Virus genome (UHGV): UHGV-1351982
Direction: 5' to 3' (one strand)
Length of the DNA stretch: 64,000 nucleotides
Source: a virus
Below are positions 153-42,913 of this stretch, piece after piece. Within the stretch, counting starts at the first letter, position 1. Every line of letters starts with the position of its first letter. A program made the translations under genes and the position numbers. The notes below the pieces were generated by a model that was not told the DNA's origin, did not search any database, and saw only the letters and a list, made by a program, of their open reading frames with translations.

Positions 153-179
153 ATATACATAAATTGATGAGAGACAAAA

Positions 180-1308: not shown

Positions 1309-1317
1309 TAAACCAAG

Positions 1318-1342: not shown

Positions 1343-1347
1343 AACTT

Positions 1348-4144: not shown

Positions 4145-4147
4145 AAC

Positions 4148-6180: not shown

Positions 6181-6184
6181 TAAT

Positions 6185-6218
6185 AAACCCCAGTGGATTT
6201 CCACTGGGGTTTTCTTTT
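6185..6218. terminator. bidirectional terminator hairpin (CCCCAGTGG-ATTT-CCACTGGGG, A-run before and T-run after)
   Basis: Perfect 9-bp stem between convergent genes ending at 6180 and 6217. Confidence 0.65.
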
Positions 6219-7431: not shown

Positions 7432-7853
7432 TATTGAGTTACTCCATCGCTGATGTATACTTTACCTTCCATAATACGGAAAGAACTGACTTCAGAGCCA
7501 ATTACATCACGAGTCATTAGGATATCATAATAACCAGCAAAACGTTGTCTTGGGTTATACTTATCACGTTCTTTAGATGCTTTTTCACCAATATTAGTAA
7601 CGTCTGCAACGGAAAGACTAATTGCAGCAGCACCTTGAGCAGCATCAATAACACGAGTTTTAAAGTTAGCTAGAACCTCGGCGTTCTCATCTAAACTAGA
7701 TTTAATAGTTCCTCGGAGTGAATATCCGGTTAAGTTAACAGGAACTTCTGTTGGTGGATATACACTGTCATCAACATCCATAAACTGCATGATAAGACCA
7801 TAAGGTACTTTCTCATCAACAACAATATCAATAACTCGGTTTTCTGTACTCAT
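7431..7853 (-). CDS. collar protein (T5 p132-like)
   Basis: 140 aa, position between ltf and pb4 as in T5; assignment by synteny and size. Confidence 0.45.
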
Positions 7854-7858
7854 TATAA

Positions 7859-9916
7859 TTACCTTATATGGATATACCCACTATTTAGGTCTATCTTCAT
7901 CTTGTAGTATGCTTCAGGGTTCCCTGATAACGCAGCATTTCTATCATAGATTATATTAACACCGATTTGTGATAAGAAGGCATTTCCTGCCACAATCTTA
8001 TCCGCAGTAACAGTTCCATTAACAATCATATTGCCATGAAGAACCATTGCAGGGTTAATCCATCCAGCTCCGTTCCATTGACGGGTAAATGCTGTTTGTG
8101 GAGCATTACTGTTAAATTGTGTTAGAACATCGTATTTAACCGGAGGTTTTCCAAAGTTATTTTGAAAGAATGCGTTAGCTTGTCCATCATCCCAACCGCC
8201 TAATCCAGGAATACCCATGGAGTACATCCCAGGACCACGCTGTCCATCATGTCCTATAGTACCTTCAGTACCACTCCATTGAACTACATCAGACCAGCTA
8301 GTACCTTCAAGAAGTTTGTCAGTAACTGGATCAAGTGTACCTGTAGTCGCATAGATATTTTGTGTCATATCTGTACGGTTAGGTGGAGTTTTTGACCAAC
8401 CAGGAGGTGGATAATCTTGTTCTAACGGTTTGGCCGGTAAAGATGTTGCTAACTTATAAACAAATACTATTTGCTTACCTTGTAAACCAGTTCCAATATC
8501 TACGTCACCATTTGGTGTTCCAATTACTACACCACTAGAAATACGCAGAGTAGTACCATCATAACGTATCCATTGTGTAGCATTACCAATGTCTAACTTA
8601 GCTTTGGCAGAGGTATTATCCATACCCATCCAAATACCAGAGTTATTATCCCCCCAGGATTTACCTTGAGTGTAAATTGCTGGGTTATCTTTACCAGACA
8701 AGTTAGTCATGATAAAGTTCGCAGCATTAATATCTCTAGTAATTACTTTACCATCAACGTTAACAACACGGTTTATAGGGTCAAAAGAAATAGGTGCTTT
8801 ACCTTCTTCATCTAGCAGACCAATGTTAATAGCACCAGTAGCTGCATCAATTAGGAATGTTTGTCTCCAGATTTCCCCATCTTTCATACTACCCTTAATA
8901 AAGGCATAGTTAACATCAATACCCGTCTCATTGACAAAACTATTATCTAGAGGAGTATCTTCATTCAGAATAAATGTTACAGGAGATGACTCTGTTATAT
9001 CTTGTTTGTTTGGTCCCCAGGCAATTGATGAAACCTTAAAGGTATGTTCAACTTTCCATGGGAATGATATAATCGTTGCAGCTCTGGCAGCACCCACGTT
9101 TATCTTTTGAGCTTTAGCCCATCCGGTTTTAGCGTATTCCTCGGAGTTTATGTAAGTAACCAAGAATTCACGAACGTTAGCACCAGCACCACGTTCCCAG
9201 TCCCACTCAATTCTAACATCATATCGTTCTTTACCATCAGCAATTCGTGCAGCTTTAAAAACAATATCGATAGGTGCAGTAGGAGGAACAAAATTATAAG
9301 CTACAGTTAGAATATTAGGGAACTCATAGTACCCAGAAGAATCAACTGTAACACCATCAGGCATAGTTACTTGACCAGATATTCTGATCTTATAATCTCC
9401 GATAGGAACTCCACCAAATTTAATAGTAGAACCTAAAGCCCCAATATAATATTTAGTCCATGGACTGTCTTCAGTGGCTGTACTTTTTAACTCAATAGTA
9501 CAGTAGCTTGCTTCACCAGTTGTTTCCACAACAACTATTGGTGCGCCCACCCCAACATCCACAGGTTCTGACTCAGATCTTGCTGCAACAATTATTGGCT
9601 TCTCTTTTGTTTTAAAGTTAGTTTCATTAGAGAGGTTAATACCAATTTTTGCATTTAAAAGTTCTGAGTCAATAATTGAGTCATAAAAAGCTCCCTGAAC
9701 CTGATAGGTAGTTGAGGGAGTTAAGTTATTGATCATAACAAAGAAAGTGTCGATTCCAGTGAAATCTCTCCTATCCACTTCTTCGCCAAGTTTAAGCCAG
9801 AATGATCTACCGATAACATCGTAGTCGGTATAGATAGAATGCTGGATATACGCCATAGTATATCCAGTCATAATACTATTTAAGACCATCTTGGCTGGTG
9901 CATTATTCGAAATCAT
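7859..9916 (-). CDS. baseplate/central fiber protein (T5 pb4-like)
   Basis: 685 aa (T5 pb4 about 688 aa); synteny upstream of pb3. Confidence 0.6.
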
Positions 9917-28329: not shown

Positions 28330-30111
28330 TTAGGTTAGGCGTTGAACTGTTACACGTAGTCTTGGCAAGAAAACAGCTGCCGCTTCTGCAGCGTGAATGA
28401 TAACACCCAACTCAACGTTGCCATTACCAAGGTTTTTAATAGTATAAATATATCCGTTCCTACGGAAAGCAAACTTATCAGGCCTACTAGCCCAAGTTTG
28501 TGTATAACTATAGGAAGTTGTACTGTGATAAGGTACTAGATATCCAGGTGGCAGAGTAAGAATCTGGTGGAATACACCATCACCAGCTGTATAACTTTGT
28601 TGACGTCTACCTTGTACCTGCCAAGCGCTACCGCCGTAAGTACGCACAGGCATTCCAGCAGTATTAAGATTACCCATAATAACTTCAGTAGTTAATATAA
28701 CGGTAGAGTGAGCATTAGGTAATCCTAACCAAACAGTGGCCAAAGGTGTATAGAAGTCACCAGCACCAGGGTAGGAAGGAGTTATATCATCACCAACATA
28801 AGTACTTGCAACGTTGCCTGGAAATAACCTGAGGGGTACAGTACTAGGACTCCACACAGGTCCATGTTCATTACCGATGGAGTTGGTATTAGTATCTACA
28901 TACCATTGTTTACCTACACCAAATTTATATAAGCTAATTTGAGAAGCTGCACCCCCATAGTTAACAGGAGACCACAACCCGCCATTACTAGAGCCGATAA
29001 ATTCACATCGTGCAGTATTATCACCAAAAACTCCGGTATACGCAGCGTTATTACCAACATACTCCATATCAGGGCGATAGCCTAAGTTTCCAAAGGCATT
29101 CTGGTTAATGAATTTATATCCTGTATTTGGTAAACTAACACCTTTAATAGTAAAGTTAGATGGAGATATTAGGATATCTGAACCGGTAAATGGATTACCA
29201 GAAACTCCCATACTACCATTAGAATAGCGCAGATTTAGCACATACCAAATAACCTTAGTTGGCGTAACGTTATACCAGTCCTGTACATATACCTTTCTAG
29301 CAGACTGAGCAGCCATATTAGAAGTAGAACCTCTACAAACATATATTTTTTTTGGATATGCAGGAGATTGGTAAAGAACGTTTACGTTATCTGGTAGTAC
29401 ACCTTTCTTACCTGCAAAGCCACGAATATTAGAATTACAAACATAAAACCAATCATGGCCTCTACCAGCAGAACCAACAGGCGCCTGCCAGTTAGGTTCC
29501 CAATAATCTGCGTTACCACCATCTAAAGGAACAGTAGAGACACCAGTTGGAAAACCCATAAGACTCCAGGCTCTGGCAATGGCTTCACCAGCAGAAACAC
29601 CACCAGGTCTAAAGATCTGGAAACCAGAGGACTGTAGTAAACTGCCTCCAGAACCTTGCCGAGCAATAGATTCCTCATGACCAAGACCACCATTATAGAT
29701 ATAGGTACCATGAGCTAAACTATCACCGATCGCAAAAGCAGATGTTACAGATAATTCAGCACCAGCACGTGGTTGGTCTTCAAAGAATGATAAGAACTGG
29801 CCAACCTGAGATTGTGTACCATTAAGGAAACCCCTATGAGTACCATTTATCTCAATAGCAGTTAATATAACTCTACCAGGATCATTGGATTTAATGTTTA
29901 TAATATCCCAAGGCATCTGAGTAACAAAGTACCCATTACCTGCATCACCTAGGGCAGCCTCATAAGTCCCATCAACTAGGACGAAGGGCATATCTGAGTG
30001 GAAGATACTATTAGTATTTGGAGAGTAGTGCTGATTTATATCACCACCATTAGCAGCGTTTAGAGATAATACAGTTTTACCATCACTAAATTTTCCTGCG
30101 AAAAAACTCAT
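28330..30111 (-). CDS. oad: receptor-binding protein (T5 pb5/oad-like)
   Basis: 593 aa; N-terminus [18 protein letters not shown]...IFHSDM resembles my recollection of T5 pb5; divergently adjacent to llp as in T5-like phages. Confidence 0.6.
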
Positions 30112-30136
30112 ACAATCTCCTTCTTTAAAAATGTAT

Positions 30137-30165
30137 TTGCTTAGATCCCTCTATTTTGCTATAAT
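30137..30165 (+). promoter_or_regulatory. early-type promoter (TTGCTT-N17-TATAAT) with ATAAATT leader upstream of llp
   Basis: Hexamers and spacing read directly; same family as minus-strand early promoters. Confidence 0.55.
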
Positions 30166-30194
30166 ATATTTATAAATTAAACAGAGGAACGATT

Positions 30195-30461
30195 ATGAAA
30201 AAGTTACTAGCTATCGTAGTTGCAGCAGTAGTGTTGACTGGTTGTGTGCCAGCTCCCGAGCCATTTTGTAGGGCATATGTGAAGTCTTATGGTCATGTTG
30301 GTGAAGAACACTACGCTTTAGATATTCGAGAAGCACGTACTGTGGGCTACCGATTCCCTAAAACTCAGTTACGCACTAAGTTTGGGTGGTGGGATTTGTC
30401 ACAGTTTGATCTCAAATATGGCGATTGCAAATTTAAACTAGAACAATCTGGTCACTTGTAA
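30195..30461 (+). CDS. llp: lipoprotein Llp-like (receptor-blocking superinfection exclusion)
   Basis: Signal peptide with lipobox LTGC; small; divergent from the receptor-binding gene as in T5. Confidence 0.6.
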   Translation: MKKLLAIVVAAVVLTGCVPAPEPFCRAYVKSYGHVGEEHYALDIREARTVGYRFPKTQLRTKFGWWDLSQFDLKYGDCKFKLEQSGHL

Positions 30462-30923: not shown

Positions 30924-31026
30924 TGGAAGTAGTAATTATTGCTTTACTAGTTGTGGTACTTATCGGGCAGTGCATCTTAGACAACCACTTAGCTCGTATC
31001 GAACGTAAGCTGCGGGGAGACAAATA

Positions 31027-31221
31027 ATGGATTGGTTAGGACTTATTACACTTGTAGTATGGCTTGTCTGGATTGTTGGATATATGACTTCACATCGTAA
31101 CCGTATACAGCGGCTAGAGGATAAAGTCACCCAGCTTAATATTAATATGGATAAGTTACTGGACTCCCAACGTAATGATCGGGCACGTATTCACCAACTT
31201 GAGAGGGAATTAGATGTTTAG
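31027..31221 (+). CDS. small membrane protein
   Basis: 64 aa with N-terminal TM helix LGLITLVVWLVWIVGY. Confidence 0.4.
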   Translation: MDWLGLITLVVWLVWIVGYMTSHRNRIQRLEDKVTQLNINMDKLLDSQRNDRARIHQLERELDV

Positions 31222-31441
31222 CTTTGTAGCTATCTTCATTATCGGGGTGCTTGCGGGAATCTTCGGAACACTCGGGGCTATTAACAAGCATCGTGAATAC
31301 GTTGCGGGAGTATCGCGGGAGCTTTCGGAAAGGGAGCGGAAGTTTGCGGAGAAACGTGCGGAGTTTGAGCGAGAGTGGTCGGATGGATCTCGGGCGTCGC
31401 AGAGGAGGTTTCGGGCTGATTCCGTGAGTTCTCCTAAGTAG
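31214..31441 (+). CDS. small membrane protein
   Basis: 75 aa with N-terminal TM helix FSFVAIFIIGVLAGIFGTLGAI. Confidence 0.4.
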   Translation: MFSFVAIFIIGVLAGIFGTLGAINKHREYVAGVSRELSERERKFAEKRAEFEREWSDGSRASQRRFRADSVSSPK

Positions 31442-31599
31442 CGCTAATTTGACTTTTGCCAAATCTCATAAGATTACACATGAAGGTGTGCCCAGAGGTT
31501 CCCTAGATGAGAATGAGTCTCATTACCGCCCCCTTACTTAGCAAGCTAATAGTCACACCATGTTATCATTACACAGTGTGACTATTTTATTTTTAATTG

Positions 31600-32334
31600 T
31601 TAGGCAACTTTTAATTTATCAATGAATTGTTGCGGTGTGGTACTATATTCCGCGCGTTCTTCCTCGGTCATACCTTCCCAACACATTTTTAAACGTTCGG
31701 CTAGGAATTGATAATCGTTATCATCATCAAGCGATTCATCAATAAAGGTTTCACCGATCAATGTTACGCCGATTGATAGGATATCGTTAACGGCTTGAGC
31801 ATCCAGCGTTTTAAATCCAGCACTTGCCGCCGCTGATAATACACCTTTATGATCATCAATCATTGTAAAATCAGCATTAGGATATAGCTGTTTAAACAGT
31901 TCAAAGTAATAAGATTTATATACAGCGTCTTTACTGTGGTATATTTCGCTAACCTTATTTGCATCAAAGTATTTATGTAATGTATCGCGGGAAAATACGC
32001 GAATATTACTATTTCCGCGCCCTCGCAAGCCTTGTTTGCGTAAATAAAAATAATCGCTTTTAGACATTAGGCGCGCGGTACAAATAATATTTAAAGTATT
32101 TGCATCATTCATACATTGGCGCATATATTCAACCAATGGCAATAAAGAATCCTGCATAATTAAATCATGCTTGCAGGCTTCGCGGGAATATTTATTTAAA
32201 TCTAAATTCCCATTATCATCAAAACAAGGCCCGACACGGTGCATTGAGTTAATGATTGTACCGTCTAAATCCCAAATCATAACGCGGGAAATATGCGGGA
32301 AAGTGCGGGTAATATTCATGTTGACTTGATTCAT
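31600..32334 (-). CDS. dmp: 5'-deoxyribonucleotidase (T5 Dmp-like, HAD-family)
   Basis: 244 aa, same length as T5 Dmp; HAD motif I VMIWDLDGTI near N-terminus. Confidence 0.6.
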   Translation of the reverse strand: MNQVNMNITRTFPHISRVMIWDLDGTIINSMHRVGPCFDDNGNLDLNKYSREACKHDLIMQDSLLPLVEYMRQCMNDANTLNIICTARLMSKSDYFYLRKQGLRGRGNSNIRVFSRDTLHKYFDANKVSEIYHSKDAVYKSYYFELFKQLYPNADFTMIDDHKGVLSAAASAGFKTLDAQAVNDILSIGVTLIGETFIDESLDDDNDYQFLAERLKMCWEGMTEEERAEYSTTPQQFIDKLKVA

Positions 32335-32421
32335 TTGTTACATTCTCCATTTAAGGGATTTAGGTTAATTCAATCTTGCCAGCTAATTATATTGGATTAG
32401 CTGGCAATGTTCAATTAACTA

Positions 32422-32814
32422 TTAATTAGTGAGGCCATACGCTAGCGCGTCACCAATAAAGCTAAGATCTTCACCATGTACGCTAGAACGAATCCCCGCG
32501 CAAGTGTAGACCATCGCGCTAGCTTCTGGATTGCAGACCGGACACGGCTTAACAACCGCAAACGCTAGACCGGATTTAAGCGCATCAATAATAATTGTTT
32601 GTACTGTTAAAGTATCAGCGTAAACACCTTTTGCTTTTGTATGGCTTGCCACTTTGCCGGTATCATAAGCAAAGGTAGTAACCTGCAAAACGTCGTTATA
32701 ATTCAGCAAATCGAAATTAACTTGCCCCGCCTCGACGTGATAACGTTCGCCATTAGAATAAACTAGAACGATGGAAGAAGTAGCGCGGTCAAAAGGAATG
32801 CTTTGGTTTTTCAT
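32422..32814 (-). CDS. hypothetical pre-early protein
   Basis: 130-aa ORF between dmp and A1-like gene. Confidence 0.4.
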   Translation of the reverse strand: MKNQSIPFDRATSSIVLVYSNGERYHVEAGQVNFDLLNYNDVLQVTTFAYDTGKVASHTKAKGVYADTLTVQTIIIDALKSGLAFAVVKPCPVCNPEASAMVYTCAGIRSSVHGEDLSFIGDALAYGLTN

Positions 32815-32846
32815 GTTTATGACTCCAGATTATTTAATTACGGGAT

Positions 32847-33125
32847 TTATTGAAAAAATACATTTAAAGATAAATCAGTTTTACGAAAATATGTTTCGTC
32901 GCCGTCTTTCCTTTCTTGATTAAGGTAATCGCCTGTCATTACCTGAATAGAATCTTTTCCGAAAAAGATCATATTTTCGCCAATATTACTATCCCATACG
33001 GCGTACATTCCCGCGTACATTCCACGGGTAACTAAATAAACGCAACTATCAAAAGACATTTCAGACCATGCAATATCTTCTAAACAATTGCTATCAGGGA
33101 TAGATATATTAATTTTACTAGCCAT
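32847..33125 (-). CDS. hypothetical pre-early protein
   Basis: 92-aa ORF. Confidence 0.4.
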   Translation of the reverse strand: MASKINISIPDSNCLEDIAWSEMSFDSCVYLVTRGMYAGMYAVWDSNIGENMIFFGKDSIQVMTGDYLNQERKDGDETYFRKTDLSLNVFFQ

Positions 33126-33177
33126 TTAATAAACCTTTTATTAATGGCGGTATATTTCAACCGCCGATTAAATTTAA

Positions 33178-34842
33178 TTATGCAAAGAATTTACCGTTCT
33201 TAAAGTCAATCAATGTTCTTTGACCGTTTGCATAGGTAATTAAATGCGTTTGCGTCCAGCTTGACGCGCCCACGTTGTAGCCCATATCAAGGGAACCAGC
33301 AACGCCAGCGGTATAAACGCCGCCGTAAATGCTAGCCGTATGAGTATGACCAGTGTTAAGGCGTCCCAACTTTTTAAACTGCTTAGGATTGCCCCGACTG
33401 CCGTTAATGCCATTGTGACCATGTACGCCGCATTCAATGCCAGCGATTTTAAACGACTGGTCAGTAGTCAGGAAAATAGCGTTAAATTCGCAACCTGCGA
33501 CACTACGCAAGGCGTAATCTAGCACGTTAAAAGTATCATCCTTTTCAGCAATAGCGGCGTATATAGCAGCGTTTAGACGGTGATACAATTCCGCGTTTGC
33601 GGGATCGTCTTTAATGTTAGCGTTACGATCATCTAACCAGCGGGATAAAGCTAAATCATGGTTAGATTCAACAATGATTGTTTGAGAGAAATCACGCTCC
33701 ATTGATTCTAATACGCGTCCAGTGTCGATAAGATCATCTAGAACCTTGTCACGTCCTGCGGCGTACTGTTTAGCAAGGAATACACCACTAGCGCGGTTGT
33801 GATGGTTACGCGATGTAAAATCATGCACATCATGAATAAACTGATATTTAGGCTTGAGAATATCAAGCAAGCTGTTTTCACTAGCCCATGAAGCAACGGC
33901 GCATTCATCATCTAATTTTTCGGCGTGAATATCACCATATTGCAAGCCTAGAACATGATCGGACGTTTCAAAACATCCGGTAGGCATAGCGCAAACATTC
34001 AAATCATAAAACATTCCGCTTTCGTCCATCGTTTCAAGCTGACGAACAAAAAATTCGCCGTCGTCGTCAAATTCTACCAGCAAAGCGCCGAAATTATGTA
34101 AAGCCTCGGCCTTTTGTCCTGCCTTTTGCTGGATATAGTTTTTAAGCGTAGCCGTTCCGGTTGAATACATACGGCGCACTACTTCACCTTTTAACGCTGG
34201 CACACTTTCAGCGGTAATTTTAGCGTGACCAATTGCCAGACCTTCAATATTTAAAGCCGTGGCGGTTTCTGCGAATCCTGAAAGCGGATAGTCTGCCGTT
34301 GGTAACACGTTAATTTCAGCCATGAAAGCAAAACGGCGATTATTTAAAAATACGTTTTTCTCGCAAATATATTTATTAAATGCGGGATCGTATTTAATGC
34401 CTTCGTTACCTTCTCCATTCTGGAAGCCGTTTTTATTGTAAATGAATTTACTAACCAGCAATTCACCGCCGATATATTCAGCGAATTTTTCCAGACTTGC
34501 TAAAAAGTTTTTATGCGGGAAAGTATTATTTTGAATCGACGTTAGAATAAAACGGCGACCGGATTTAACTTCCCACTGTTCCACGGTACTAGAAACAATT
34601 CCCGCCGCTTCGGGGCGATCATCATTTTTAATCGCCTTTTCAGCTTTTGCCGCTTTCGGTTTTGCTGGCTTATTTGCTTCCAACCAATCGCAAATTGCGG
34701 TTGAATGTTTCGTTGTATCGTAAACAGCTTTTGATATATCGTCGCAAACTTCCAGCTTAGTAGCGCGTAAACGTTTACCGTAGAAATTAAAATCAGCGGC
34801 AAGTTTAACGATCTGGGCTTGTTTTTCTGCGGAAATATTCAT
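33178..34842 (-). CDS. A1: A1-like pre-early protein with metallophosphatase motifs
   Basis: 554 aa (T5 A1 about 556 aa); calcineurin-like motifs GDIHAE and GHTHTASIYGG; in pre-early region next to dmp. Confidence 0.6.
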   Translation of the reverse strand: MNISAEKQAQIVKLAADFNFYGKRLRATKLEVCDDISKAVYDTTKHSTAICDWLEANKPAKPKAAKAEKAIKNDDRPEAAGIVSSTVEQWEVKSGRRFILTSIQNNTFPHKNFLASLEKFAEYIGGELLVSKFIYNKNGFQNGEGNEGIKYDPAFNKYICEKNVFLNNRRFAFMAEINVLPTADYPLSGFAETATALNIEGLAIGHAKITAESVPALKGEVVRRMYSTGTATLKNYIQQKAGQKAEALHNFGALLVEFDDDGEFFVRQLETMDESGMFYDLNVCAMPTGCFETSDHVLGLQYGDIHAEKLDDECAVASWASENSLLDILKPKYQFIHDVHDFTSRNHHNRASGVFLAKQYAAGRDKVLDDLIDTGRVLESMERDFSQTIIVESNHDLALSRWLDDRNANIKDDPANAELYHRLNAAIYAAIAEKDDTFNVLDYALRSVAGCEFNAIFLTTDQSFKIAGIECGVHGHNGINGSRGNPKQFKKLGRLNTGHTHTASIYGGVYTAGVAGSLDMGYNVGASSWTQTHLITYANGQRTLIDFKNGKFFA

Positions 34843-34951
34843 AACTAATTCAACTCCTATAAAGGGATAAAGATTAAAGCTGGCAATATTGCCAAATATA
34901 ACGCCTTGCCTGAAGTGAGGACAATTTAAAAGGCGTTATAATTTGCAACAT

Positions 34952-35176
34952 TTAATTAATCGGCATTAAACTAGAACAAAAGCCAAATACAATGCCAATT
35001 GTAAGAAAGATAATTGACATATATTTTTGAATGTTCGCGTTTTTGCGGAAATTATTTGCGGCGTAAACGTTATTAATTCCAATTATTGCCAGAATTGACC
35101 GCGTATAATTCAGAATAAAAGCGGCGGCAATAATAAATAAACCTAAAATAAACGCTTCGCTAGGATAAAAGATCAA
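34952..35176 (-). CDS. small membrane protein
   Basis: 74 aa, two hydrophobic helices. Confidence 0.35.
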   Translation of the reverse strand: MIFYPSEAFILGLFIIAAAFILNYTRSILAIIGINNVYAANNFRKNANIQKYMSIIFLTIGIVFGFCSSLMPIN

Positions 35177-35226
35177 GATTATTCTCCTTTAAGGGATAGC
35201 GGGGAATATTCCCCGCTAATTAAAAT

Positions 35227-35643
35227 TTATTCACCTGCGGCCTGTTTTACTTCCTCCGCTACGCCTAACAATTGCGCTACGGCGTCCAGCGTTTCCAGTT
35301 TTGCACTTTCCAGACTTGCCAAATCGTCGGCATCTTTTACAATGCCGCTATCAATGGCATGTTTAGCAATGACGCGCACATAGTGAGCTTTACGGACAGA
35401 GCTACCGCCGCCAACTTTACGCGGTTTATCGCTTTTCTGATAGGCTTTTGCACTGGCCAATTTAGAACGTACAGAAACAGGGGACGCAGCGCCAACGGCG
35501 GCGGCAATTTCTTTTAAGCCGTCACTATTCGCAAACTCAATCCCGCTTTTAGCAACCATTTCAGAGTACATAGAAACAGCTTTTTCGGTGTTTTCTTCGT
35601 TCCAAGAGAATTTTGCGGTTTTTTCGGTTTTAACGTTAGACAT
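35227..35643 (-). CDS. A2-like pre-early protein (putative DNA-binding)
   Basis: 138 aa immediately upstream of A1-like gene; size and position as T5 A2. Confidence 0.4.
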   Translation of the reverse strand: MSNVKTEKTAKFSWNEENTEKAVSMYSEMVAKSGIEFANSDGLKEIAAAVGAASPVSVRSKLASAKAYQKSDKPRKVGGGSSVRKAHYVRVIAKHAIDSGIVKDADDLASLESAKLETLDAVAQLLGVAEEVKQAAGE

Positions 35644-35743
35644 AATTTAATACTCCATTCAATTATTAATTAAGGGATTATGATTAACTAATGTTAATCC
35701 ATATATTCCCCATATTTCAGGGGAATATAAAAGTAACACTAAT

Positions 35744-35995
35744 TTATGCTATAGCTTGCCATTTATCATCTTTCTGAATGATCTTTACAACGTCGCCAGA
35801 TTTAACGCGAACATTATAAATAGGCTTGCTGTTGTTACTGCGTTCCGTTTCCGCATAGACCGCTTCAATCTTATCAAAGGGATCAAGCGCCGCACCTTTG
35901 ATACGTTCGGCTTTTCCGGTTAATTCATCAGTTTTAGTTACAAAAGGAATGAAAACAGATTGACCTACTTTCGGCGCGGTAATAACGTTTTGCAT
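35744..35995 (-). CDS. hypothetical protein
   Basis: 83-aa ORF. Confidence 0.4.
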   Translation of the reverse strand: MQNVITAPKVGQSVFIPFVTKTDELTGKAERIKGAALDPFDKIEAVYAETERSNNSKPIYNVRVKSGDVVKIIQKDDKWQAIA

Positions 35996-36159
35996 TTTTA
36001 ATACTCCGGTTTATTGGGGATTATTCCACAATAGCGCCTCGATACTTTGAAACGCTATTAGATTATAATCCGCTAGGAGTTAGCCTAAACATTACCATTA
36101 TCCAAATTTTTAAAGAGCAGTTACTACGGGGAACATCTTAAAACCTATCGGCTAGCGTG

Positions 36160-36378
36160 TCAAGCGTTTTTTAAACTTTTTTCGATTTGATGTGAGTTAT
36201 ATAAATCAATCATTATATTACGCCACACCATTTCCAGACCTTGCTGCTTACCTTTCTTGTATTGCTTGAATCTGTATTTTACAGATCGTTGCGCTACTGT
36301 CAACAAATTTTTTGTTCTGCTATCCAGTGGGCTAGCAGGTTTTGCACTAATCACTAAAGCGTTTTTTGATTTGATCAT
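36160..36378 (-). CDS. hypothetical basic protein
   Basis: 72-aa basic ORF. Confidence 0.35.
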   Translation of the reverse strand: MIKSKNALVISAKPASPLDSRTKNLLTVAQRSVKYRFKQYKKGKQQGLEMVWRNIMIDLYNSHQIEKSLKNA

Positions 36379-36760
36379 TATCGTCGATTCCTTATAATGT
36401 ATAAGTTTACCGCCGATAGGCTTTAAGATGTTCCCTAGTTTTTAAAGAGCATGGCGGTAAACTTCCCCGCCGTGTAATCTTGCGTTTCGTTTCCGTCCCG
36501 CCGTCCTACGAGATAAATAATAGGGGATTCCCGAAAATGGCGCAACCTTATTTTTGTAAAGAAACGTAAAGAAAACCACTACCCGCACCACGGCAAGCGG
36601 CGCACTAAGTTTAATGAAACAGGCGCGCGAATAACACTAAAACAACCACTTTAGCAAGTAATTTTTTCATTTATATCTGCTCTAGGGTACTTGACAAAAT
36701 CTAAAATCCTCGTGGTGAGGTTTTCTCGGTGTACCCCTTATGATTGCCTATCTTTTCCTT

Positions 36761-36798
36761 TGATGCGCTTAGAATCGCTTACAGAGCGTTTTAGACCC
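36761..36798. repeat. direct repeat copy 1 (TGATGCGCTTAGAATCGCTTACAGAGCGTTTTAGACCC)
   Basis: About 85 percent identical to 40503-40538 by eye. Confidence 0.6.
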
Positions 36799-37010
36799 TG
36801 TTAATAACTTATACAAAAAGCAAAAATGAAATTTAATGAGTTATCCACTTGATTTTTCAAAAAAGTATTTTCTGCTGTTATTTTTCATTGACAAATAAGT
36901 TTAGACGTGCATTGATTGGTTAGCAGACTAACAATCGCTAGGATAATAATCACGCTGGTGGATTGTAACAGCCGAAACAGTTAGCAGACTATTAATACTC
37001 TAAAAACCTA

Positions 37011-37041
37011 TTAGCCAACTAACTATTTCATATTATATAAT
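37011..37041 (+). promoter_or_regulatory. candidate promoter (-10 TATAAT with ATAAATT leader) about 430 nt upstream of the plus-strand cluster
   Basis: TATAATATACTTATAAATT matches the conserved early promoter/leader motif; -35 weak. Confidence 0.35.
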
Positions 37042-37099
37042 ATACTTATAAATTAAAGAGAAATAATAACTATAAGAAACTATCGGCTAAGTGAGAACC

Positions 37100-37222
37100 A
37101 CTATCATTTAGGTTATTCACAAAGTTATCCACAGCACAAAATAACTTGACGCAATAGGCGACGTTTTGGCGACTTATCCACAGACTTATGTACAGGTTAT
37201 CCTACTGTATAAATATACAGGG
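37100..37222. repeat. left copy of about 120-bp imperfect inverted repeat carrying two DnaA boxes (TTATTCACA 37113-37121, TTATCCACA 37125-37133), a third DnaA box (37174-37182) and a LexA-like box (37203-37222)
   Basis: Reverse complement of 40567-40690 aligns by eye; includes an identical 16-mer TTATCCACAGACTTAT. Confidence 0.6.
37203..37222. promoter_or_regulatory. LexA (SOS) box-like palindrome TACTGTATAAATATACAGGG
   Basis: CTGT-N8-ACAG core with AT-rich spacer, close to the E. coli consensus TACTGTATATATATACAGTA. Confidence 0.5.
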
Positions 37223-37469
37223 TAGAATGGTAGCAGTAACAACCGCAATCAAATTTAAGCGGCCTAGAACGCGCTACACGGCGTTTTCTCACTGCTACCC
37301 TTATTATAATAAAGCCTTGTGTACGCTTACAGAGAGCTAGAAATAGAAAACGCGCGGTTATCATAAAAACAGGCAGTAGGCAAGGAATAAAAAACCTTTT
37401 CTTTTTTCTTGCCCATAGTGAACAAATATCTATATCATTCACTCACCGATTAACGAGGGAGGCAAAGAA

Positions 37470-38489
37470 ATGTCTACTGTAAGAATTGCAGTGCCAGCAA
37501 ACGCAACTATTGTTAAAGGTAGTTTGCGCAACCTGCTAGATGGTAGTAGTGCGGCAAGTATTCAGCACACCGCTACTATTGTAGAAAAGATTCACGATGA
37601 AATTTTAGACAATAATGATACTCATTATTCAGTTGATGATTTCACGCTATTACTAGACCAGACAAGGGCGCTAGTAATTTTCAACCGTGATTATCACATT
37701 TTCCGTAATAGTCGGGGAACTGATATTGATTTTATCATTGTTGGTTATAGTGAGTCTCATAGTGGTTACATTGCGCGATTATATAACGTGCAAGAAAAGG
37801 AGCAGGTAACAGCAACAAAAGTAAATAATATCCGGCTGGATAGTGTCGGATCGTTATTAAATAGTATCTGGCGTGAATTATCCTCAAGCTATAAAGGTGC
37901 GGATAGTGACGCAATCGAAACAACTGGCGTATTGTGTTTTGAAAAGTCAACGGGTAACATGTTGATCCCTAGCGATTATTTAGGGTATGGGAATGAATCA
38001 AACGTTGCAAACGCTGGATTTACACTTTTCCCGCTTGACAATGTAACAAAACAGGCTGTAAACTCTCAAACTTCAAGCGCAATTGCGCAAACTACTGAAA
38101 ATAAAGGAAATAACACTATGTCTAAAGTAACCGCTATCGTTGCCGCTAATAAATCCGCCGCCGCTACCGCTGCAAAACTGGAAGCGGGTAAAGTAGCACT
38201 AACTCAGCTTACAAAAGTAGCGGCTAAAGCCCTGCCTTCTGGTATGGCTGGCATGTTCGCTAAACAGTATTTAGATACTCCGGTCGGGCGCGTTGTTGTT
38301 GCCAACTTGTTAAATCTGGCAATCGAACAATACGCACCGAATAACCAGAAAGCGCGAATTGTTGCTAAAGCCGCAATGGATGCCGCAATGCTGGAAGTGG
38401 TACAGAGTTTCAATATTTCTGAAATGATCGACAAGGCAATCGAGGGAATCAACATTGATGCTTTGACTGCTAATATTTCAGAAGAGTAA
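37470..38489 (+). CDS. hypothetical protein (339 aa), first gene of plus-strand pre-early cluster
   Basis: Strong RBS GAGGGAGG before ATG; own terminator hairpin after stop; no recognisable domain. Confidence 0.5.
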   Translation: MSTVRIAVPANATIVKGSLRNLLDGSSAASIQHTATIVEKIHDEILDNNDTHYSVDDFTLLLDQTRALVIFNRDYHIFRNSRGTDIDFIIVGYSESHSGYIARLYNVQEKEQVTATKVNNIRLDSVGSLLNSIWRELSSSYKGADSDAIETTGVLCFEKSTGNMLIPSDYLGYGNESNVANAGFTLFPLDNVTKQAVNSQTSSAIAQTTENKGNNTMSKVTAIVAANKSAAATAAKLEAGKVALTQLTKVAAKALPSGMAGMFAKQYLDTPVGRVVVANLLNLAIEQYAPNNQKARIVAKAAMDAAMLEVVQSFNISEMIDKAIEGINIDALTANISEE

Positions 38490-38498
38490 TAATAACAA

Positions 38499-38525
38499 GC
38501 GGGAATTAATTTTCCCGTTTTCTTC
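38499..38525 (+). terminator. terminator-like hairpin after the 339-aa gene
   Basis: CGGGA-ATTAATTT-TCCCG followed by TTTTCTT. Confidence 0.45.
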
Positions 38526-38547
38526 CCTTTTAGTTAGGAGACTAATT

Positions 38548-39039
38548 ATGTTTGGTAACAGAAATTATGGCAACCCTATTGAAGCACGATCCCTTAATCA
38601 TGACGCAATTGTATTCACTCATGCGTCTACCGGTTATTGTGGATCAGATGGGAATGATTATCATTTCGTTCCCGCTGGTGACGATATTGATGATCTATGT
38701 AATGAGGCAGGTTATGAAAATGCTTGCTCTTATGGTCTAGAAGTTATTGAAGTAGACGACGGCGAATATGAGGATAATGATAATATTGAATGCTCCGCTT
38801 ATCATTATCAGTTAAGTGAATCAGGTTGTTATATTGGCGGCGGCGATCCTATTAATTCCATCACTGAAATAATTATTGAAAATGGTGGCGTTTCGCTGAA
38901 TGGTAACAAGGCGTTACTATATGCAAACCGATTAAAGCAACTTGTATATATTCCTGATGGGAAAGAATGGGAAGAATACAACGTTCTAATTGCAGAATTG
39001 AAAAGCTGTTTCGGCGTGGAAGTGGTAGAAATAGTCTAA
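38548..39039 (+). CDS. strongly acidic hypothetical protein (163 aa)
   Basis: RBS TTAGGAGA; Asp/Glu make up over one fifth of residues with very few Lys/Arg, several Cys. Confidence 0.5.
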   Translation: MFGNRNYGNPIEARSLNHDAIVFTHASTGYCGSDGNDYHFVPAGDDIDDLCNEAGYENACSYGLEVIEVDDGEYEDNDNIECSAYHYQLSESGCYIGGGDPINSITEIIIENGGVSLNGNKALLYANRLKQLVYIPDGKEWEEYNVLIAELKSCFGVEVVEIV

Positions 39040-39054
39040 TGTAAAGTTTTGTAA

Positions 39055-39081
39055 AGGTCGCCCTAATCGGCGGCCTTTTTT
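39055..39081 (+). terminator. rho-independent terminator (GGTCGCC-CTAATC-GGCGGCC then TTTTTT)
   Basis: GC stem plus T6 immediately after the stop at 39039. Confidence 0.6.
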
Positions 39082-39146
39082 GTTATAATGCCTTTACACC
39101 GAAACGGTGGATTGAAAATTTTCCCTGATTTCTAGGAGGCGTTAAA

Positions 39147-39377
39147 ATGGTTGCTTTCTCTTCTTCTGACTCCCTTTTCACTGGTAAAGGTTGGGTATCT
39201 AATCGCTGGATCATTGATCAAATGGTTTCGGAATTTGGGATTGGTAAAACTTATGTTACCATTCAGGCGCTTTATGATAATGACAAGATTGACCAGCAAA
39301 CCGCCGGATTTTTGCTGGATACGCTGAAAGCGGAACATTGCACTAAAAAGCAAGCGGCAAAAATTGTTTTAATGTAA
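39147..39377 (+). CDS. hypothetical protein (76 aa)
   Basis: RBS CTAGGAGG; followed by hairpin GGGGCG-TTACTTTC-GCCCC. Confidence 0.45.
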   Translation: MVAFSSSDSLFTGKGWVSNRWIIDQMVSEFGIGKTYVTIQALYDNDKIDQQTAGFLLDTLKAEHCTKKQAAKIVLM

Positions 39378-39424
39378 TTAATAACGGGGCGTTACTTTCG
39401 CCCCTCATTCCCTTACTAGGAGTT

Positions 39425-39643
39425 ATGCAAATGTTAAAGAATGTTTCCCTTGCCCGTTCTAAAGGTTTTAAGCTGGTGGATGTTAACACCTTCGAGCGTC
39501 CAGATTGTAAAATCGAATATGTAGCACGCAACAAAAACCCTTTCCGTGTTACAGAAAAGAAATTTGACAAGCGCGGCAATTTGATAGCCGAAACGGTTAA
39601 ACACTTTGCTACTTTTTACGCTGCTTTTCGTGGGGTATTATGA
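39425..39643 (+). CDS. hypothetical basic protein (72 aa)
   Basis: RBS CTAGGAG; possible 33-aa hydrophobic ORF (39642-39743) overlapping its stop. Confidence 0.45.
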   Translation: MQMLKNVSLARSKGFKLVDVNTFERPDCKIEYVARNKNPFRVTEKKFDKRGNLIAETVKHFATFYAAFRGVL

Positions 39644-39752
39644 GATCCTTATATATTGCTCTAGCGTTTGCTACTGTTGGCGTTGTATGCTCATTCGCCG
39701 CATTTGTTTTAAAAATGTACATGATATTTTCCCAGCTTTAGGAGGTTGACAA

Positions 39753-40100
39753 ATGGTAATTTATGAGGGCAATCGTTTTGTTGCTAATTGCCGTCCGGCA
39801 TTGTTAGCAAACTATTTAAATCAGCTTTCACCAGTTTATAAAGGCGTGGTTAATATCTATGAAGGCAAAGCACATTATAAAATTTCTGCCGTTGTCGCTC
39901 GCGAGCTTGCCTTTCAGTTTCTTACTTTTAACTCATGCGATATTCAGGTTATGGGTGAGCCATTAGTCGCAGAAAATGAAAATGAATTTATTGACATTTT
40001 CCGCAAAGTATGTACAGAGCGCCTGATTATGAAGGGCGCGTATATTCAATCAACCGCTGAAAGTATTGAAACAGCGTTTCGAAAAATTGTAAATGAATAG
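39753..40100 (+). CDS. hypothetical protein (115 aa)
   Basis: RBS TTAGGAGG 8 nt before ATG. Confidence 0.45.
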   Translation: MVIYEGNRFVANCRPALLANYLNQLSPVYKGVVNIYEGKAHYKISAVVARELAFQFLTFNSCDIQVMGEPLVAENENEFIDIFRKVCTERLIMKGAYIQSTAESIETAFRKIVNE

Positions 40101-40226
40101 CTGGTGGCGAAAAACACAAAGCCATAAATCTAATAATACCGCTGGGAAACATTCCCAGCGTTTACGATTTGGTAATGGCTGCGTAATGATATTGATAATC
40201 ATCCTCATTCTAGGAGCGATGGCGTT

Positions 40227-40421
40227 ATGAGTGATAAAATTGTTGTAACTAAAACTACTGTTACCGTTGATACTTTCTTTGTGCCTGATACGCTGGAAAA
40301 TCGGCAATTAGTCGAGCGTGGCGATTATGACAAAGTGATATATGATGGGGATGGATACTATCAACATTTGGTAGACTCCTACGGCGAAAGCGAAAAGATC
40401 ACACATCGACTACCAGACTAA
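40227..40421 (+). CDS. hypothetical acidic protein (64 aa)
   Basis: RBS CTAGGAGC; terminator follows. Confidence 0.4.
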   Translation: MSDKIVVTKTTVTVDTFFVPDTLENRQLVERGDYDKVIYDGDGYYQHLVDSYGESEKITHRLPD

Positions 40422-40427
40422 TAATAA

Positions 40428-40457
40428 CGGGGCGCAACTATCGGCCCCGTCTTTTCT
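40428..40457 (+). terminator. rho-independent terminator (CGGGGCG-CAACTATC-GGCCCCG then TCTTTTCT)
   Basis: Strong GC hairpin and T-rich tail after last gene of plus-strand cluster. Confidence 0.6.
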
Positions 40458-40502
40458 GGCCTTCCTCAAATTTCCCCTTATTAAAATACCTCTTCCAAAA
40501 AT

Positions 40503-40538
40503 AAACGCGTTAGAATGCGTTACAGAGCGTTTTAGAGC
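40503..40538. repeat. direct repeat copy 2 (AAACGCGTTAGAATGCGTTACAGAGCGTTTTAGAGC)
   Basis: Matches 36761-36798. Confidence 0.6.
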
Positions 40539-40566
40539 TATATTAGAGTTATTCACTACGCAGGAA

Positions 40567-40586
40567 TACTGTATAAATATACAGTA
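40567..40586. promoter_or_regulatory. near-consensus LexA (SOS) box TACTGTATAAATATACAGTA
   Basis: Perfect palindrome TACTGTAT/ATACAGTA, 19 of 20 matches to the E. coli LexA consensus. Confidence 0.55.
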
Positions 40587-40690
40587 GAATAATCTGTTGA
40601 TAAGTCTGTGGATAACGCCTCAAAATCGCTAGGATTTTGTCAAGTCAAATCGTGCTGTTAATAAACCTGTGGATAACTTAAATAACAGTG
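40567..40690. repeat. right (inverted) copy of the about 120-bp repeat with LexA box (40567-40586) and two DnaA boxes TGTGGATAA (40607-40615, 40668-40676)
   Basis: Reverse complement aligns with 37100-37222. Confidence 0.6.
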
Positions 40691-40708
40691 TTTCTCACTT
40701 CGCTTTGT

Positions 40709-40852
40709 AAATGCGAGTCATTCTCATTATCATTCGCGTTTCCCTTCCTAAATGCAAATCATTCTCATTCGTATTCCGGTAGTCAAATGATAACTATTCT
40801 CATTCGCATTCAACTTCTCAAATGCGAATCAATCTCATTATCATTCGCATTT
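40709..40852. repeat. four tandem copies of a palindromic unit (AATGCGA..TTCTCATT..CATTCGC)
   Basis: Units at about 40709, 40750, 40785 and 40820; last unit has perfect 10-bp arms AAATGCGAAT/ATTCGCATTT. Confidence 0.6.
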
Positions 40853-40889
40853 CGGCAGGCAGGGCATTTTCTATTTGCCCTGCGCTTTT

Positions 40890-41489
40890 GTGCAAATCCG
40901 ACATTTGCCCCCACGGATTACGTGCCAGCGTGTATGTGCGAATCCGACAATTTTTGGTAGTGTGCAAATCCGACCCGAAATATTTTTATAGTGTGCGAAT
41001 CCGACAATGAATTTCCCTAAAAACTCCAGCAATCTCGAACTGCGATCGAATCCTGTGGGATATGCGCAAATCCGACATGAGTTTGCTAGGAGACAGATTT
41101 ATGGTTTCAGGAATATTTTTGTGACTTCGATGAGAGGGTGTGTAATTGTGTGAGTTTGGGGAGAAGTGCGAATCCGATGAGGTTTTGGGAGGAACTATGA
41201 GAGGAGCAGCGGTGTTGGTGCTTTAGCACCGATTTGCTGCGTTTTTGGGGATAATGTGAGATGTTTTGGGATAATTGGGCGTGGGGTGAGATAAAGTGAA
41301 ATTTTATTAGTTAAATGGGGCAAAATCGCTTGACAAGTGAAAATTCCTGTGTCCCTAAAAACTCAGGCAATCATGGGCCTTCGGCCCGAAATAATGCTGC
41401 TATTTTCAGGAGATTATGTGCTCATGAAAACTTAGGCAATTGTGCAAATCCGACCAGTTTTTAAACTTATATCAGTGTGCAAATCCGAT
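40890..41489. repeat. iteron-like array: 8 direct copies of GTGC(A/G)AATCCGA(C/T), all in one orientation, irregular spacing
   Basis: Copies at 40890, 40936, 40962, 40993, 41064 (variant GCGCAAATCCGAC), 41166, 41442, 41477. Confidence 0.7.
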
Positions 41490-42025: not shown

Positions 42026-42913
42026 TTACAGTAACTCTTGGTATGCTTTTTGGTACGCCTCAGTGTTAGTAGGTGTATCTTTTGCAATAGTTATTAATTC
42101 ATCTGTGATCTGAATATTCGTATTATAACGTGAGTGGAACTCGTCAGGAATTTCTAGATACCTATTGATGAATGCTGCAGCAAGCGGTGAAGCTATACCC
42201 ATTTCTAGAACCCATCCAACTTGTTTCTCAAACTTCAAATAAGGAGATTCTGTTTGAATAGTAGAAGTTTTGGTTTCCTTGATTTCTTTTATTGGTAGGA
42301 TTGGATTTTCATAACGTGCTTCTTCAGGGATAGCAGATCTACGTTCTTTATAAATATAAGTCTCTAGATCCGATGCTTTAGACCCTGAATATACTGCAAA
42401 GACACTTGCTTTACCTTGTGATGCTCTAATTGGTAAATAGCAATTTGGATAACTTCTCAATGCATCGTGGAAAGGGCTTCCAGAATATTGATAACGCTCT
42501 CCATATAAATCATCAATGTTCATTCGTTCATCTTCGAAGATATGGAATGCACTAAATGAAGGTAGTGTGAAATATTCTGTTTCTAGCGCGCGAATTAAGA
42601 ATCGATGAGCATATGCACTAATCTTAATAACTGTGTAGGGTTTTTCTCCTTCTTTGAGAGCGTTACCCTTAGATGTAACTTGATAACGTTTTCCGAAGAA
42701 CTCTACTAAACGCTTCTCGTTTAAAGAGAGTGTAGAGTATAAACGTCCGTTCAGTCCTAGCAAGGTATCAAACATAAATGCTAGCTTATCTTTTTCTTCT
42801 TGGGTTAGTTCAGGAAATGGTAGGATCTTAGCATTTGGAATGTTATTTGTTTCCTTTGCCTTTCCTTTGCCAGCATTTTGTCTCAGTTTGTCTTTAAAAT
42901 TATAAGTACCCAT
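42026..42913 (-). CDS. hypothetical early protein (295 aa)
   Basis: ORF with coding-like composition; last gene of minus-strand early block. Confidence 0.5.
   Translation of the reverse strand: MGTYNFKDKLRQNAGKGKAKETNNIPNAKILPFPELTQEEKDKLAFMFDTLLGLNGRLYSTLSLNEKRLVEFFGKRYQVTSKGNALKEGEKPYTVIKISAYAHRFLIRALETEYFTLPSFSAFHIFEDERMNIDDLYGERYQYSGSPFHDALRSYPNCYLPIRASQGKASVFAVYSGSKASDLETYIYKERRSAIPEEARYENPILPIKEIKETKTSTIQTESPYLKFEKQVGWVLEMGIASPLAAAFINRYLEIPDEFHSRYNTNIQITDELITIAKDTPTNTEAYQKAYQELL

What the first reader, a model, noticed from the sequence alone, without database searches (positions are those of the whole stretch)
31600..35643. Pre-early host-takeover module (dmp, A1-like, A2-like) with embedded small unknown genes
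Lengths and order match T5 dmp (244 aa, HAD motif), A1 (554 aa with metallophosphatase motifs) and A2. In T5, A1 is needed for host DNA degradation and completion of DNA transfer, yet its mechanism is unknown. Several small ORFs between them (130, 92, 74, 83, 72 aa) are uncharacterised and sit in a region typically enriched for anti-host functions.
Basis: partly seen in the sequence, partly recalled or inferred. Interest (0 to 1): 0.4.

Follow-up and report, generated by a model that had tools for sequence, protein, structure and literature searches.

The report
T5-type pre-early host-takeover operon
This stretch is the well-known "first-step-transfer" operon of a T5-like Salmonella/E. coli phage (dmp, A1, A2, the FtsZ inhibitor Hdi and small accessory genes); it is ordinary for this family, apart from one small swappable gene of unknown function.

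The parts
31600..32334 (-). dmp: HAD-family 5'-deoxynucleoside monophosphatase, last gene of the leftward pre-early operon
   Evidence: 89.8% identity to T5 Dmp (T5.001) over 244/244 aa. phrog_415 E=4e-56. Motif I is DLDGT at residues 22-26. The Pfam HAD hit is only sub-threshold, E=0.059.
32422..32814 (-). T5.002 homologue (130 aa), function unknown; dispensable and non-toxic in T5
   Evidence: 72% identity to T5.002. phrog_4576 E=4e-76. No Pfam, NCBIfam, PADLOC or PDB match.
32847..33125 (-). Eps7-type 92-aa acidic protein (pI 4.2) occupying the 'T5.003 slot'; orphan family, function unknown
33178..34842 (-). A1: N-terminal 3-helix domain (5-56), linker, beta-rich middle domain (~90-292), C-terminal metallophosphoesterase domain (~295-554); predicted host-DNA nuclease, also required for second-step transfer
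34952..35176 (-). T5.005-like small membrane protein (74 aa, basic, two hydrophobic segments)
   Evidence: 34% identity to T5.005, E=1e-12. phrog_4820 'membrane protein' E=6.5e-33. Kyte-Doolittle 19-residue windows of at least 1.6 fall within residues 1-34 and 49-74, GRAVY 1.06.
35227..35643 (-). A2: DNA-binding protein required with A1 for second-step DNA transfer
   Evidence: 87.8% identity to T5 A2 over 131 aa. phrog_1725 'DNA binding protein' E=6e-50. The function is taken from the T5 literature.
35744..35995 (-). T5.007 homologue (83 aa, DUF7177), function unknown; dispensable and non-toxic in T5
   Evidence: 79.5% identity to T5.007. PF23801 E=6e-44.
36160..36378 (-). Hdi (T5.008) orthologue: host division inhibitor acting on FtsZ
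   Evidence: 68% identity to T5.008 over 60 aa. PF24188/DUF7416 E=3e-39. T5.008=Hdi comes from PMC10714956.
36276..36303 (-). Best sigma-70-like promoter match of the region (TTGACA-16-TAAAAT, 11/12), inside the hdi ORF, where T5 has the strong promoter P_H22
   Evidence: Consensus scan. T5 annotation places P-H22 inside T5.008. The position is inferred by homology and function was not tested.
36135..36163 (-). Second promoter-like site (TTGACA-17-TAAGAT, 10/12) at the 3' end of hdi, upstream of the 83-aa gene; possible counterpart of T5 P_D/E20
   Evidence: and the T5 annotation. Inference only.
31475..31599 (.). Inferred left end of the terminal direct repeat (the genome end in the LTR copy), about 110-125 bp beyond the dmp stop
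   Evidence: T5 LTR position 83 maps to window 31557. The annotated right terminal repeat of EscoHU1 starts 110 bp before the dmp stop. The window holds only one repeat copy, so the boundary itself is not visible here.

Best explanation
This is the leftward pre-early (first-step-transfer) operon of a T5-like phage of the genus Epseptimavirus. It lies at the left end of the roughly 9.9-kb terminal repeat, which maps to window ~31475-41350.

[quoted passage not shown] The order is hdi, 007, A2, 005, A1, the 92-aa cassette, 002, dmp.

A1 is a metallophosphoesterase-fold enzyme whose overall architecture is closest to the PolD DP1 proofreading exonuclease and to SbcD/Mre11. It degrades the host chromosome. 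This has been shown in vivo for the 90.6%-identical T5 protein; the nuclease chemistry is inferred from motifs and fold.

Dmp is a HAD 5'-dNMP phosphatase. It converts the released dNMPs to nucleosides, which are excreted (T5 literature).

[quoted passage not shown] Genetics show this in T5, but the mechanism is unknown. Hdi blocks FtsZ.

The small 002, 005 and 007 homologues, and the cassette in the 003 slot, are non-essential accessory proteins. The 92-aa ORF is one allele of a polymorphic slot directly downstream of A1.
For: The nearest phage genomes are Epseptimaviruses: 95.5% nt identity to Salmonella phage BD13, with the same gene series.

Protein identities to T5.001, 002, 004-008 are 34-91% in the same order and strand. 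T5 LTR 83-10215 maps collinearly to window 31557-41351. All eight genes share a strand, with gaps of 32-164 bp and SD-like sequences (GGAG/AGGA in 7 of 8). The best promoter match falls inside hdi, as P_H22 does in T5.

Functional data for the T5 orthologues: A1 is necessary and sufficient for chromosome degradation; A1 and A2 are essential; dmp increases virulence; 002/003/005/007 are dispensable; Hdi targets FtsZ.
Against: Nothing here was tested experimentally on this phage; every function is transferred from T5.

No Pfam metallophosphatase model detects A1 or any of 38 homologues at E<=0.01, and sequence searches of the PDB find nothing. The enzymatic assignment therefore rests on motifs plus a predicted fold.

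Purified A1 has not been shown to be a nuclease.

The 92-aa ORF has no T5 counterpart, so the T5 genetics for 003 do not strictly apply to it. The 74-aa protein is only 34% identical to T5.005.

The window contains one copy of the repeat, so 'terminal repeat' is inferred by homology.
Confidence: 0.93

Rival explanations
1. A1 is not itself the DNase. Its metallophosphoesterase domain acts as a phosphatase or as an activator of a host nuclease (for example RecBCD or another exonuclease), and chromosome loss is indirect.
Against: The top structural match, and the only class of listed hits that aligns about 180-218 residues rather than ~150, is the DP1 / polymerase B-subunit architecture; Mre11 and SbcD are also among the best hits. 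A1 alone suffices for chromosome loss in two E. coli strains. Distant family members carry an N-terminal DNA-binding HTH, which fits a DNA-acting enzyme.
Confidence: 0.12
2. A1, alone or modified by A2, is a site-specific, restriction-like endonuclease. Its sites are absent from the first-step DNA, and it also cuts the phage DNA beyond the injection stop signal to restart transfer (Davison's model).
For: The model was proposed to explain why T5 DNA escapes degradation and why both A1 and A2 are needed. A1 carries an N-terminal helical module at the position where distant homologues have an HTH.
Against: The fold is MPE/DP1/Mre11-like, a class of exo- and structure-specific endonucleases rather than any known restriction-enzyme fold. 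The T5-type N-terminal domain has no detectable HTH signature. A1 homologues occur in more than 1100 phage records from unrelated families, including 46-kb Rhizobium phages, Flavobacterium podoviruses and phiCbK-like and jumbo phages, and in one metagenomic contig examined the A1 homologue lies among replication genes.
Confidence: 0.06
3. The 92-aa ORF is simply a very diverged orthologue of T5.003, with the same fold and the same (unknown, dispensable) role, rather than an unrelated cassette.
For: It has the same length (92 aa), the same slot and the same first residues (MA-KIN-P). The C-terminal 25 columns align in register between the two family profiles at a marginal score (E=0.011). A third allele, the 85-aa SE24 type, aligns to the T5.003 family over 67 columns at E=0.014.
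Against: hhalign probabilities are only 2-4%, and blastp gives E=1.2. DNA identity to T5 stops abruptly after codon 6 and resumes at the next gene's RBS, which is the signature of cassette exchange. The shared N-terminus lies inside the conserved flank. Both types occur within the single genus Epseptimavirus, so the difference is not simple vertical divergence.
Confidence: 0.35

Closest known systems
Bacteriophage T5 left-terminal-repeat pre-early genes T5.001-T5.008 (dmp, 002, 003, A1, 005, A2, 007, hdi; NC_005859)
   Same: Same gene order, strand and spacing. Protein identities are 68-91% for dmp, 002, A1, A2, 007 and hdi. A promoter-like site sits inside hdi as in T5. The module lies at the end of the terminal repeat, next to the receptor-binding-protein/llp locus.
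   Different: T5.003 is replaced by a sequence-unrelated 92-aa gene. The 005 homologue is only 34% identical and is 74 rather than 65 aa. Elsewhere in the repeat, hegG, 013 and 016 were not found and an extra 163-aa ORF is present.
Epseptimavirus genomes (Salmonella phage BD13, JN-S202001, Escherichia phage Eps7, EscoHU1)
   Same: 92-95.5% nt identity across 31000-36600, with identical gene content including the 92-aa gene, which is 100% identical to the Eps7 protein B2I441.
   Different: Only point differences. Database annotations are poorer or misleading; for example, the 74-aa membrane protein is labelled 'putative A1 protein precursor'.
Metallophosphoesterase nucleases: archaeal PolD DP1 3'-5' exonuclease, SbcD/Mre11
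   Different: Sequence identity is 12-17%. No Pfam or PDB sequence-level hit exists. Motif II reads H-D-x-H-D rather than G-D-x-x-D. No Rad50/SbcC or polymerase partner gene is nearby. A1 has an extra N-terminal helical domain and binds A2 and RNA polymerase (literature).
T5.008 / Hdi, FtsZ-targeting host division inhibitor (PMC10714956)
   Same: The 72-aa ORF is 68% identical and belongs to DUF7416 (E=3e-39), in the same position at the head of the operon.
   Different: It is 5 aa longer, and its activity on Salmonella or E. coli FtsZ has not been tested for this allele.

Membership tests
T5-type (Demerecviridae) pre-early / first-step-transfer module | A1 orthologue, the hallmark gene present in all Demerecviridae | tested here: met
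   90.6% identity over 554/556 aa, E=0.
T5-type (Demerecviridae) pre-early / first-step-transfer module | A2 and dmp orthologues in the same leftward operon, with the order dmp<-002<-003 slot<-A1<-005<-A2<-007<-hdi | tested here: met
   A2 87.8% and dmp 89.8% identity, collinear with T5.001-008.
T5-type (Demerecviridae) pre-early / first-step-transfer module | Location inside a ~10-kb direct terminal repeat at the genome end | tested here: inconclusive
   The T5 LTR maps to window 31557-41351, and the EscoHU1 annotated repeat boundary maps ~110 bp past dmp. The window carries a single collapsed copy flanked by late and early genes, so duplication and termini cannot be seen.
T5-type (Demerecviridae) pre-early / first-step-transfer module | Pre-early expression from strong sigma-70 promoters before second-step transfer | not testable with these tools
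   Only consensus matches at the homologous positions were found. Pre-early expression of the region is shown for the tequintavirus Bas33 in PMC13250531.
Calcineurin-like metallophosphoesterase superfamily (A1 C-terminal domain) | Five metal-binding motifs: DxH, GDxxD, GNH[DE], H, GHxH | tested here: met
   G303-D304-x-H306, H337-D338-x-x-D341, N394-H395-D396, H474 and H499-x-H501 are invariant in 39 sequences. Motif II has H in place of the leading G.
Calcineurin-like metallophosphoesterase superfamily (A1 C-terminal domain) | Match to the Pfam Metallophos / Metallophos_2 HMMs | tested here: not met
   A1 has no hit at E<=0.1, and none of 39 family members has a hit at E<=0.01. The family is too diverged for the sequence models.
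Calcineurin-like metallophosphoesterase superfamily (A1 C-terminal domain) | MPE beta-sandwich fold | tested here: met
Calcineurin-like metallophosphoesterase superfamily (A1 C-terminal domain) | Metal-dependent phosphoester (DNA) hydrolysis | not testable with these tools
   Only in vivo chromosome loss on T5 A1 expression is reported. An in vitro assay is still pending.
HAD-superfamily 5'-nucleotidase (Dmp) | HAD motif I DxDx[TV] and motif IV acidic pair; orthology to the biochemically characterised T5 Dmp | tested here: met
   D22-L-D24-G-T26 and D160-D161 (translation). 89.8% identity to T5 Dmp. The Pfam HAD hit is sub-threshold: 14.2 bits against a cutoff of 26.4.
Hdi / T5.008 (DUF7416) FtsZ inhibitor | Full-length match to the family and to T5.008 | tested here: met
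   PF24188 E=3e-39 over 69/69 profile positions. 68% identity to T5.008.
T5.003 family (for the 92-aa ORF) | Detectable sequence homology to T5.003 and its relatives | tested here: not met
   blastp E=1.2. hhalign profile against sequence gives probability 2.3%, and profile against profile gives 3.8%, E=0.011, over the C-terminal 25 columns only.

The most novel reading that the evidence does not exclude
The position directly downstream of A1 may be a hypervariable cassette slot of the pre-early operon. Its states include the Eps7-type 92 aa, the T5.003-type 92 aa, the SE24-type 85 aa, empty, and at least one HNH-bearing variant. The Eps7-type acidic protein, a small beta-barrel, could be a host- or strain-specific counter-defence or takeover effector that is exchanged by recombination between conserved flanks, rather than a neutral passenger. 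This would give a defined, 92-residue candidate for an anti-defence function expressed in the first minutes of infection.
Probability: 0.15. Interest if true: 0.45.

Novelty: already known. Interest (0 to 1): 0.13.

Why it matters
The result matters mainly as a correct annotation: it fixes the phage type (Epseptimavirus, two-step DNA injection) and the position of the terminal repeat in this window. The biology is of current interest. A1 destroys the host chromosome within minutes; how phage DNA escapes A1, and how A1 and A2 restart DNA transfer, are open questions. Host DNA degradation is also now known to be sensed by defence systems such as Metis. These questions are being pursued on T5 itself, and this locus adds only another close orthologue set. 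The one locally useful lead is the polymorphic slot after A1, which offers a small set of alternative 85-92-aa pre-early proteins for comparative toxicity and anti-defence screens.

Tried and rejected
1. Pfam, NCBIfam and PADLOC scans of all eight proteins gave only DUF7177 and DUF7416 above threshold. There were no defence-system matches. The weak hits (Mfa_like_1 for the 130-aa protein, DUF4899 for A1, TrbF, AmaP) are below cutoffs and were rejected as chance.

2. Sequence searches of the PDB were run with A1 (single sequence and a 39-sequence profile), dmp, A2, and the 130-aa and 83-aa proteins. Nothing credible came back. The 3-dehydroquinate dehydratase hit (E=0.0013), the MAPK8 hits and the designer-PPR hits are short, compositional matches.

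4. The idea that Dmp neutralises the Metis sensor of m6dAMP was considered. The Metis preprint reports protection against T5 as well, so the idea is not supported.

5. The hairpin between A1 and the 92-aa gene was tested as a regulatory RNA or terminator. It is present in both T5 and the window with different stems, but z is only -1.6/-1.7 and there is no U-tract, so it was left as a passing note.

6. Plus-strand ORFs inside the region (<=81 aa, all embedded in the minus-strand genes) have no homology support and were disregarded.
Full report
**What is there**

Between 31600 and 36378, all on the minus strand, lie eight ORFs of 244, 130, 92, 554, 74, 138, 83 and 72 aa. The gaps between them are 32-164 bp. 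Seven of the eight starts are preceded by a GGAG/AGGA-type Shine-Dalgarno sequence; the 92-aa ORF has only AAAGG. The plus-strand ORFs in the interval are short and nested inside these genes.

**Identity of the locus**

Megablast of 31000-36600 finds 472 phage records. The best is Salmonella phage BD13 (genus Epseptimavirus, Demerecviridae) at 95.5% identity over 100% of the query, with the same annotated gene series.

Against T5 itself (NC_005859), blastp gives the following:

| Window ORF | T5 counterpart | Identity |
|---|---|---|
| dmp, 244 aa | T5.001 (Dmp) | 89.8% over 244/244 |
| 130 aa | T5.002 | 72% |
| A1, 554 aa | T5.004 (A1) | 90.6%, full length |
| 74 aa | T5.005 | 34% |
| A2, 138 aa | T5.006 (A2) | 87.8% |
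| 83 aa | T5.007 | 79.5% |
| 72 aa | T5.008 | 68% |
| 92 aa | T5.003 | no hit |

At the DNA level, T5 LTR 83-10215 maps collinearly to window 31557-41351. The module is therefore the left part of a T5-type terminal repeat.

The annotated right terminal repeat of EscoHU1 begins 110 bp beyond the dmp stop, which puts the repeat and genome end near window 31475-31490. To the left are the pb5-type receptor-binding protein and the Llp lipoprotein. To the right of 41.4 kb are early genes. The window thus carries a single, collapsed copy of the repeat.

**A1**

An alignment of 39 homologues reaching 41% identity shows these residues as invariant: G303-D304-x-H306, H337-D338..D341, N394-H395-D396, H474 and H499-x-H501. 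Together they form the five metallophosphoesterase (MPE) motifs.

The AF2 model is confident, with pLDDT 90.1 and pTM 0.81. It has:
- an N-terminal three-helix bundle (5-56);
- a disordered linker;
- a beta-rich middle domain (~90-292);
- the MPE domain (~295-554).

No Pfam metallophosphatase model detects A1 or any of the 39 family members, and sequence searches of the PDB are empty. The assignment therefore rests on motifs plus predicted fold.

It agrees with the 2026 preprint of Annor et al. (bioRxiv 10.64898/2026.04.02.716235). [quoted passage not shown] In vitro nuclease activity remains untested.

**Other genes with known function**

- **Dmp.** It carries HAD motif I (DLDGT, residues 22-26). 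At 89.8% identity it is the orthologue of the biochemically characterised T5 5'-dNMP phosphatase, whose deletion halves virulence.
- **A2.** It is the orthologue of the T5 DNA-binding dimer that binds A1 and is required for second-step transfer but not for DNA degradation.
- **The 72-aa ORF.** This is Hdi/T5.008 (DUF7416, E=3e-39), an FtsZ-targeting division inhibitor. It is not an uncharacterised gene.
- **Promoters.** The best sigma-70 consensus match of the region (TTGACA-16-TAAAAT) lies inside hdi at 36303-36276. T5 has promoter P_H22 at the equivalent place. A second match sits at 36163-36135. These are positional inferences only.

**Small accessory genes**

The 130-, 74- and 83-aa proteins belong to PHROGs 4576, 4820 (membrane protein) and 3747. 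The 74-aa protein is basic and has two hydrophobic segments. Their T5 homologues 002, 005 and 007 were non-toxic on expression, and their deletion, singly or combined, had no effect on virulence. No library or PDB match suggests a function.

**The one non-T5 element: the 92-aa ORF**

It has no similarity to T5.003. blastp gives E=1.2, and hhalign probabilities are 2-4%.

The DNA alignment shows T5-level identity running through the A1 3' end, the intergenic region, the RBS and the first six codons. Identity then collapses until the RBS of the next gene (blastn break at T5 1368/1632 against window 32849/33108). That is a precise cassette exchange.

Distribution and structure:
- The protein is 100% identical to the Eps7 protein B2I441 and occurs in 86 phage records. 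T5.003-type genes occur in 33 records.
- Both types occur within the genus Epseptimavirus; TrudiGerster carries the T5.003 type.
- An exhaustive HMMER scan of 1.84 billion representatives found only four further ~90-aa representative proteins, at 32-35% identity in the alignment, plus spurious repeat proteins.

A distant-mode DNA search of the slot shows further states. One is an 85-aa SE24-type gene. One is an empty slot, as in bombadil, where A1 is followed after 74 bp by the 002 homologue. At least one record has an HNH homing endonuclease among the features under the match.

Marginal in-register profile alignments (E about 0.01) between the three small-protein types leave open that they are extremely diverged alleles of one family. 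They do not establish it.

**Wider distribution of A1**

A1 homologues are not confined to T5-like phages. The protein search found at least 803 clusters. tblastn with a distant member hits 1134 phage records. These include Pseudomonas pf16, phiCbK-like Caulobacter phages, jumbo Brevundimonas phages, 46-kb Rhizobium phages, Flavobacterium podoviruses and Cellulophaga phi4:1. Many of them are already annotated 'A1-like'.

Distant members carry a Pfam-detectable N-terminal HTH at the position where T5-type A1 has its three-helix domain. In one metagenomic contig the gene sits among topoisomerase II, ClpP and ribonucleotide reductase genes. This fits a general phage DNA-metabolism nuclease that T5-like phages use pre-early.

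**Verdict**

The module is the textbook T5 pre-early operon in a close relative of many sequenced Epseptimaviruses, and its key open questions are already being addressed on T5. Novelty: already known. The only mildly interesting local feature is the polymorphic cassette slot after A1, whose occupants have unknown function.

Noticed in passing
window 31475-41351 (flanks 28330-30461 and 42026-42913): The window carries a single copy of the T5-type terminal repeat, joined on the left to the late region (pb5-like receptor-binding protein, Llp lipoprotein) and on the right to early genes (a T5.018-sized 295-aa ORF). It therefore looks like a collapsed-repeat or permuted assembly rather than a true genome end.
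   Followed up: partly
window 36379-41351: Compared with the T5 LTR, tblastn (E<0.01) finds no hegG (T5.010), T5.013 (the toxic 2-TM protein) or T5.016. T5.011 is only 47% identical. An extra 163-aa ORF at 38548-39039 (+) has no T5 LTR counterpart.
   Followed up: partly
window 32815-33177 and loci L006-L011: The slot between A1 and the 002 homologue is polymorphic among T5-like phages. The Eps7-type 92-aa gene occurs in 86 records and the T5.003-type 92-aa gene in 33. Other states are an SE24-type 85-aa gene, an empty slot (bombadil, 74-bp gap), and at least one record with an HNH homing endonuclease among the features under the match (GSW6). The first six codons and the flanks are conserved, which suggests recombinational cassette exchange.
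   Followed up: partly
window 33145-33166: A GC-rich hairpin (GGCGG...CCGCC) lies between the A1 stop and the 92-aa start. T5 has a hairpin at the same place with a different stem (AGCGGC/GCCGCT). There is no U-tract, and the folding z-scores are only -1.6 and -1.7.
   Followed up: partly
window 37113-37182 and 40607-40676: Perfect DnaA-box matches (TTATCCACA) cluster in the divergent-promoter gap; one pair of boxes there (TTATTCACA at 37113 and TTATCCACA at 37125) is 3 nt apart. They also cluster in the region homologous to the T5 injection stop signal, as described for T5-like phages. The window-wide count (9) is not above chance (7.8).
   Followed up: no
window 36919-37026: Three copies of a 17-nt direct repeat (GTTAGCAGACTAACAAT; 100, 88 and 76% identity to the reference copy) lie in the non-coding gap between the leftward and rightward pre-early operons.
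   Followed up: no
L004 6001-7602 and phage hits H83-H121: A1-family proteins occur in more than 1100 phage records well outside Demerecviridae (pf16, phiCbK-like, jumbo Brevundimonas, Rhizobium RHEph27, Flavobacterium elemo, Cellulophaga phi4:1). Among metagenomic family members, several distant ones have a Pfam-detectable N-terminal HTH. In one metagenomic contig the gene lies among topoisomerase II, ClpP and RNR genes.
   Followed up: partly
window 34952-35176: In several GenBank records (BD13, EscoHU1, 100268_sal2) the 74-aa membrane-protein gene is annotated 'putative A1 protein precursor'. This is a legacy mislabel: it is the T5.005-type two-segment membrane protein.
   Followed up: yes
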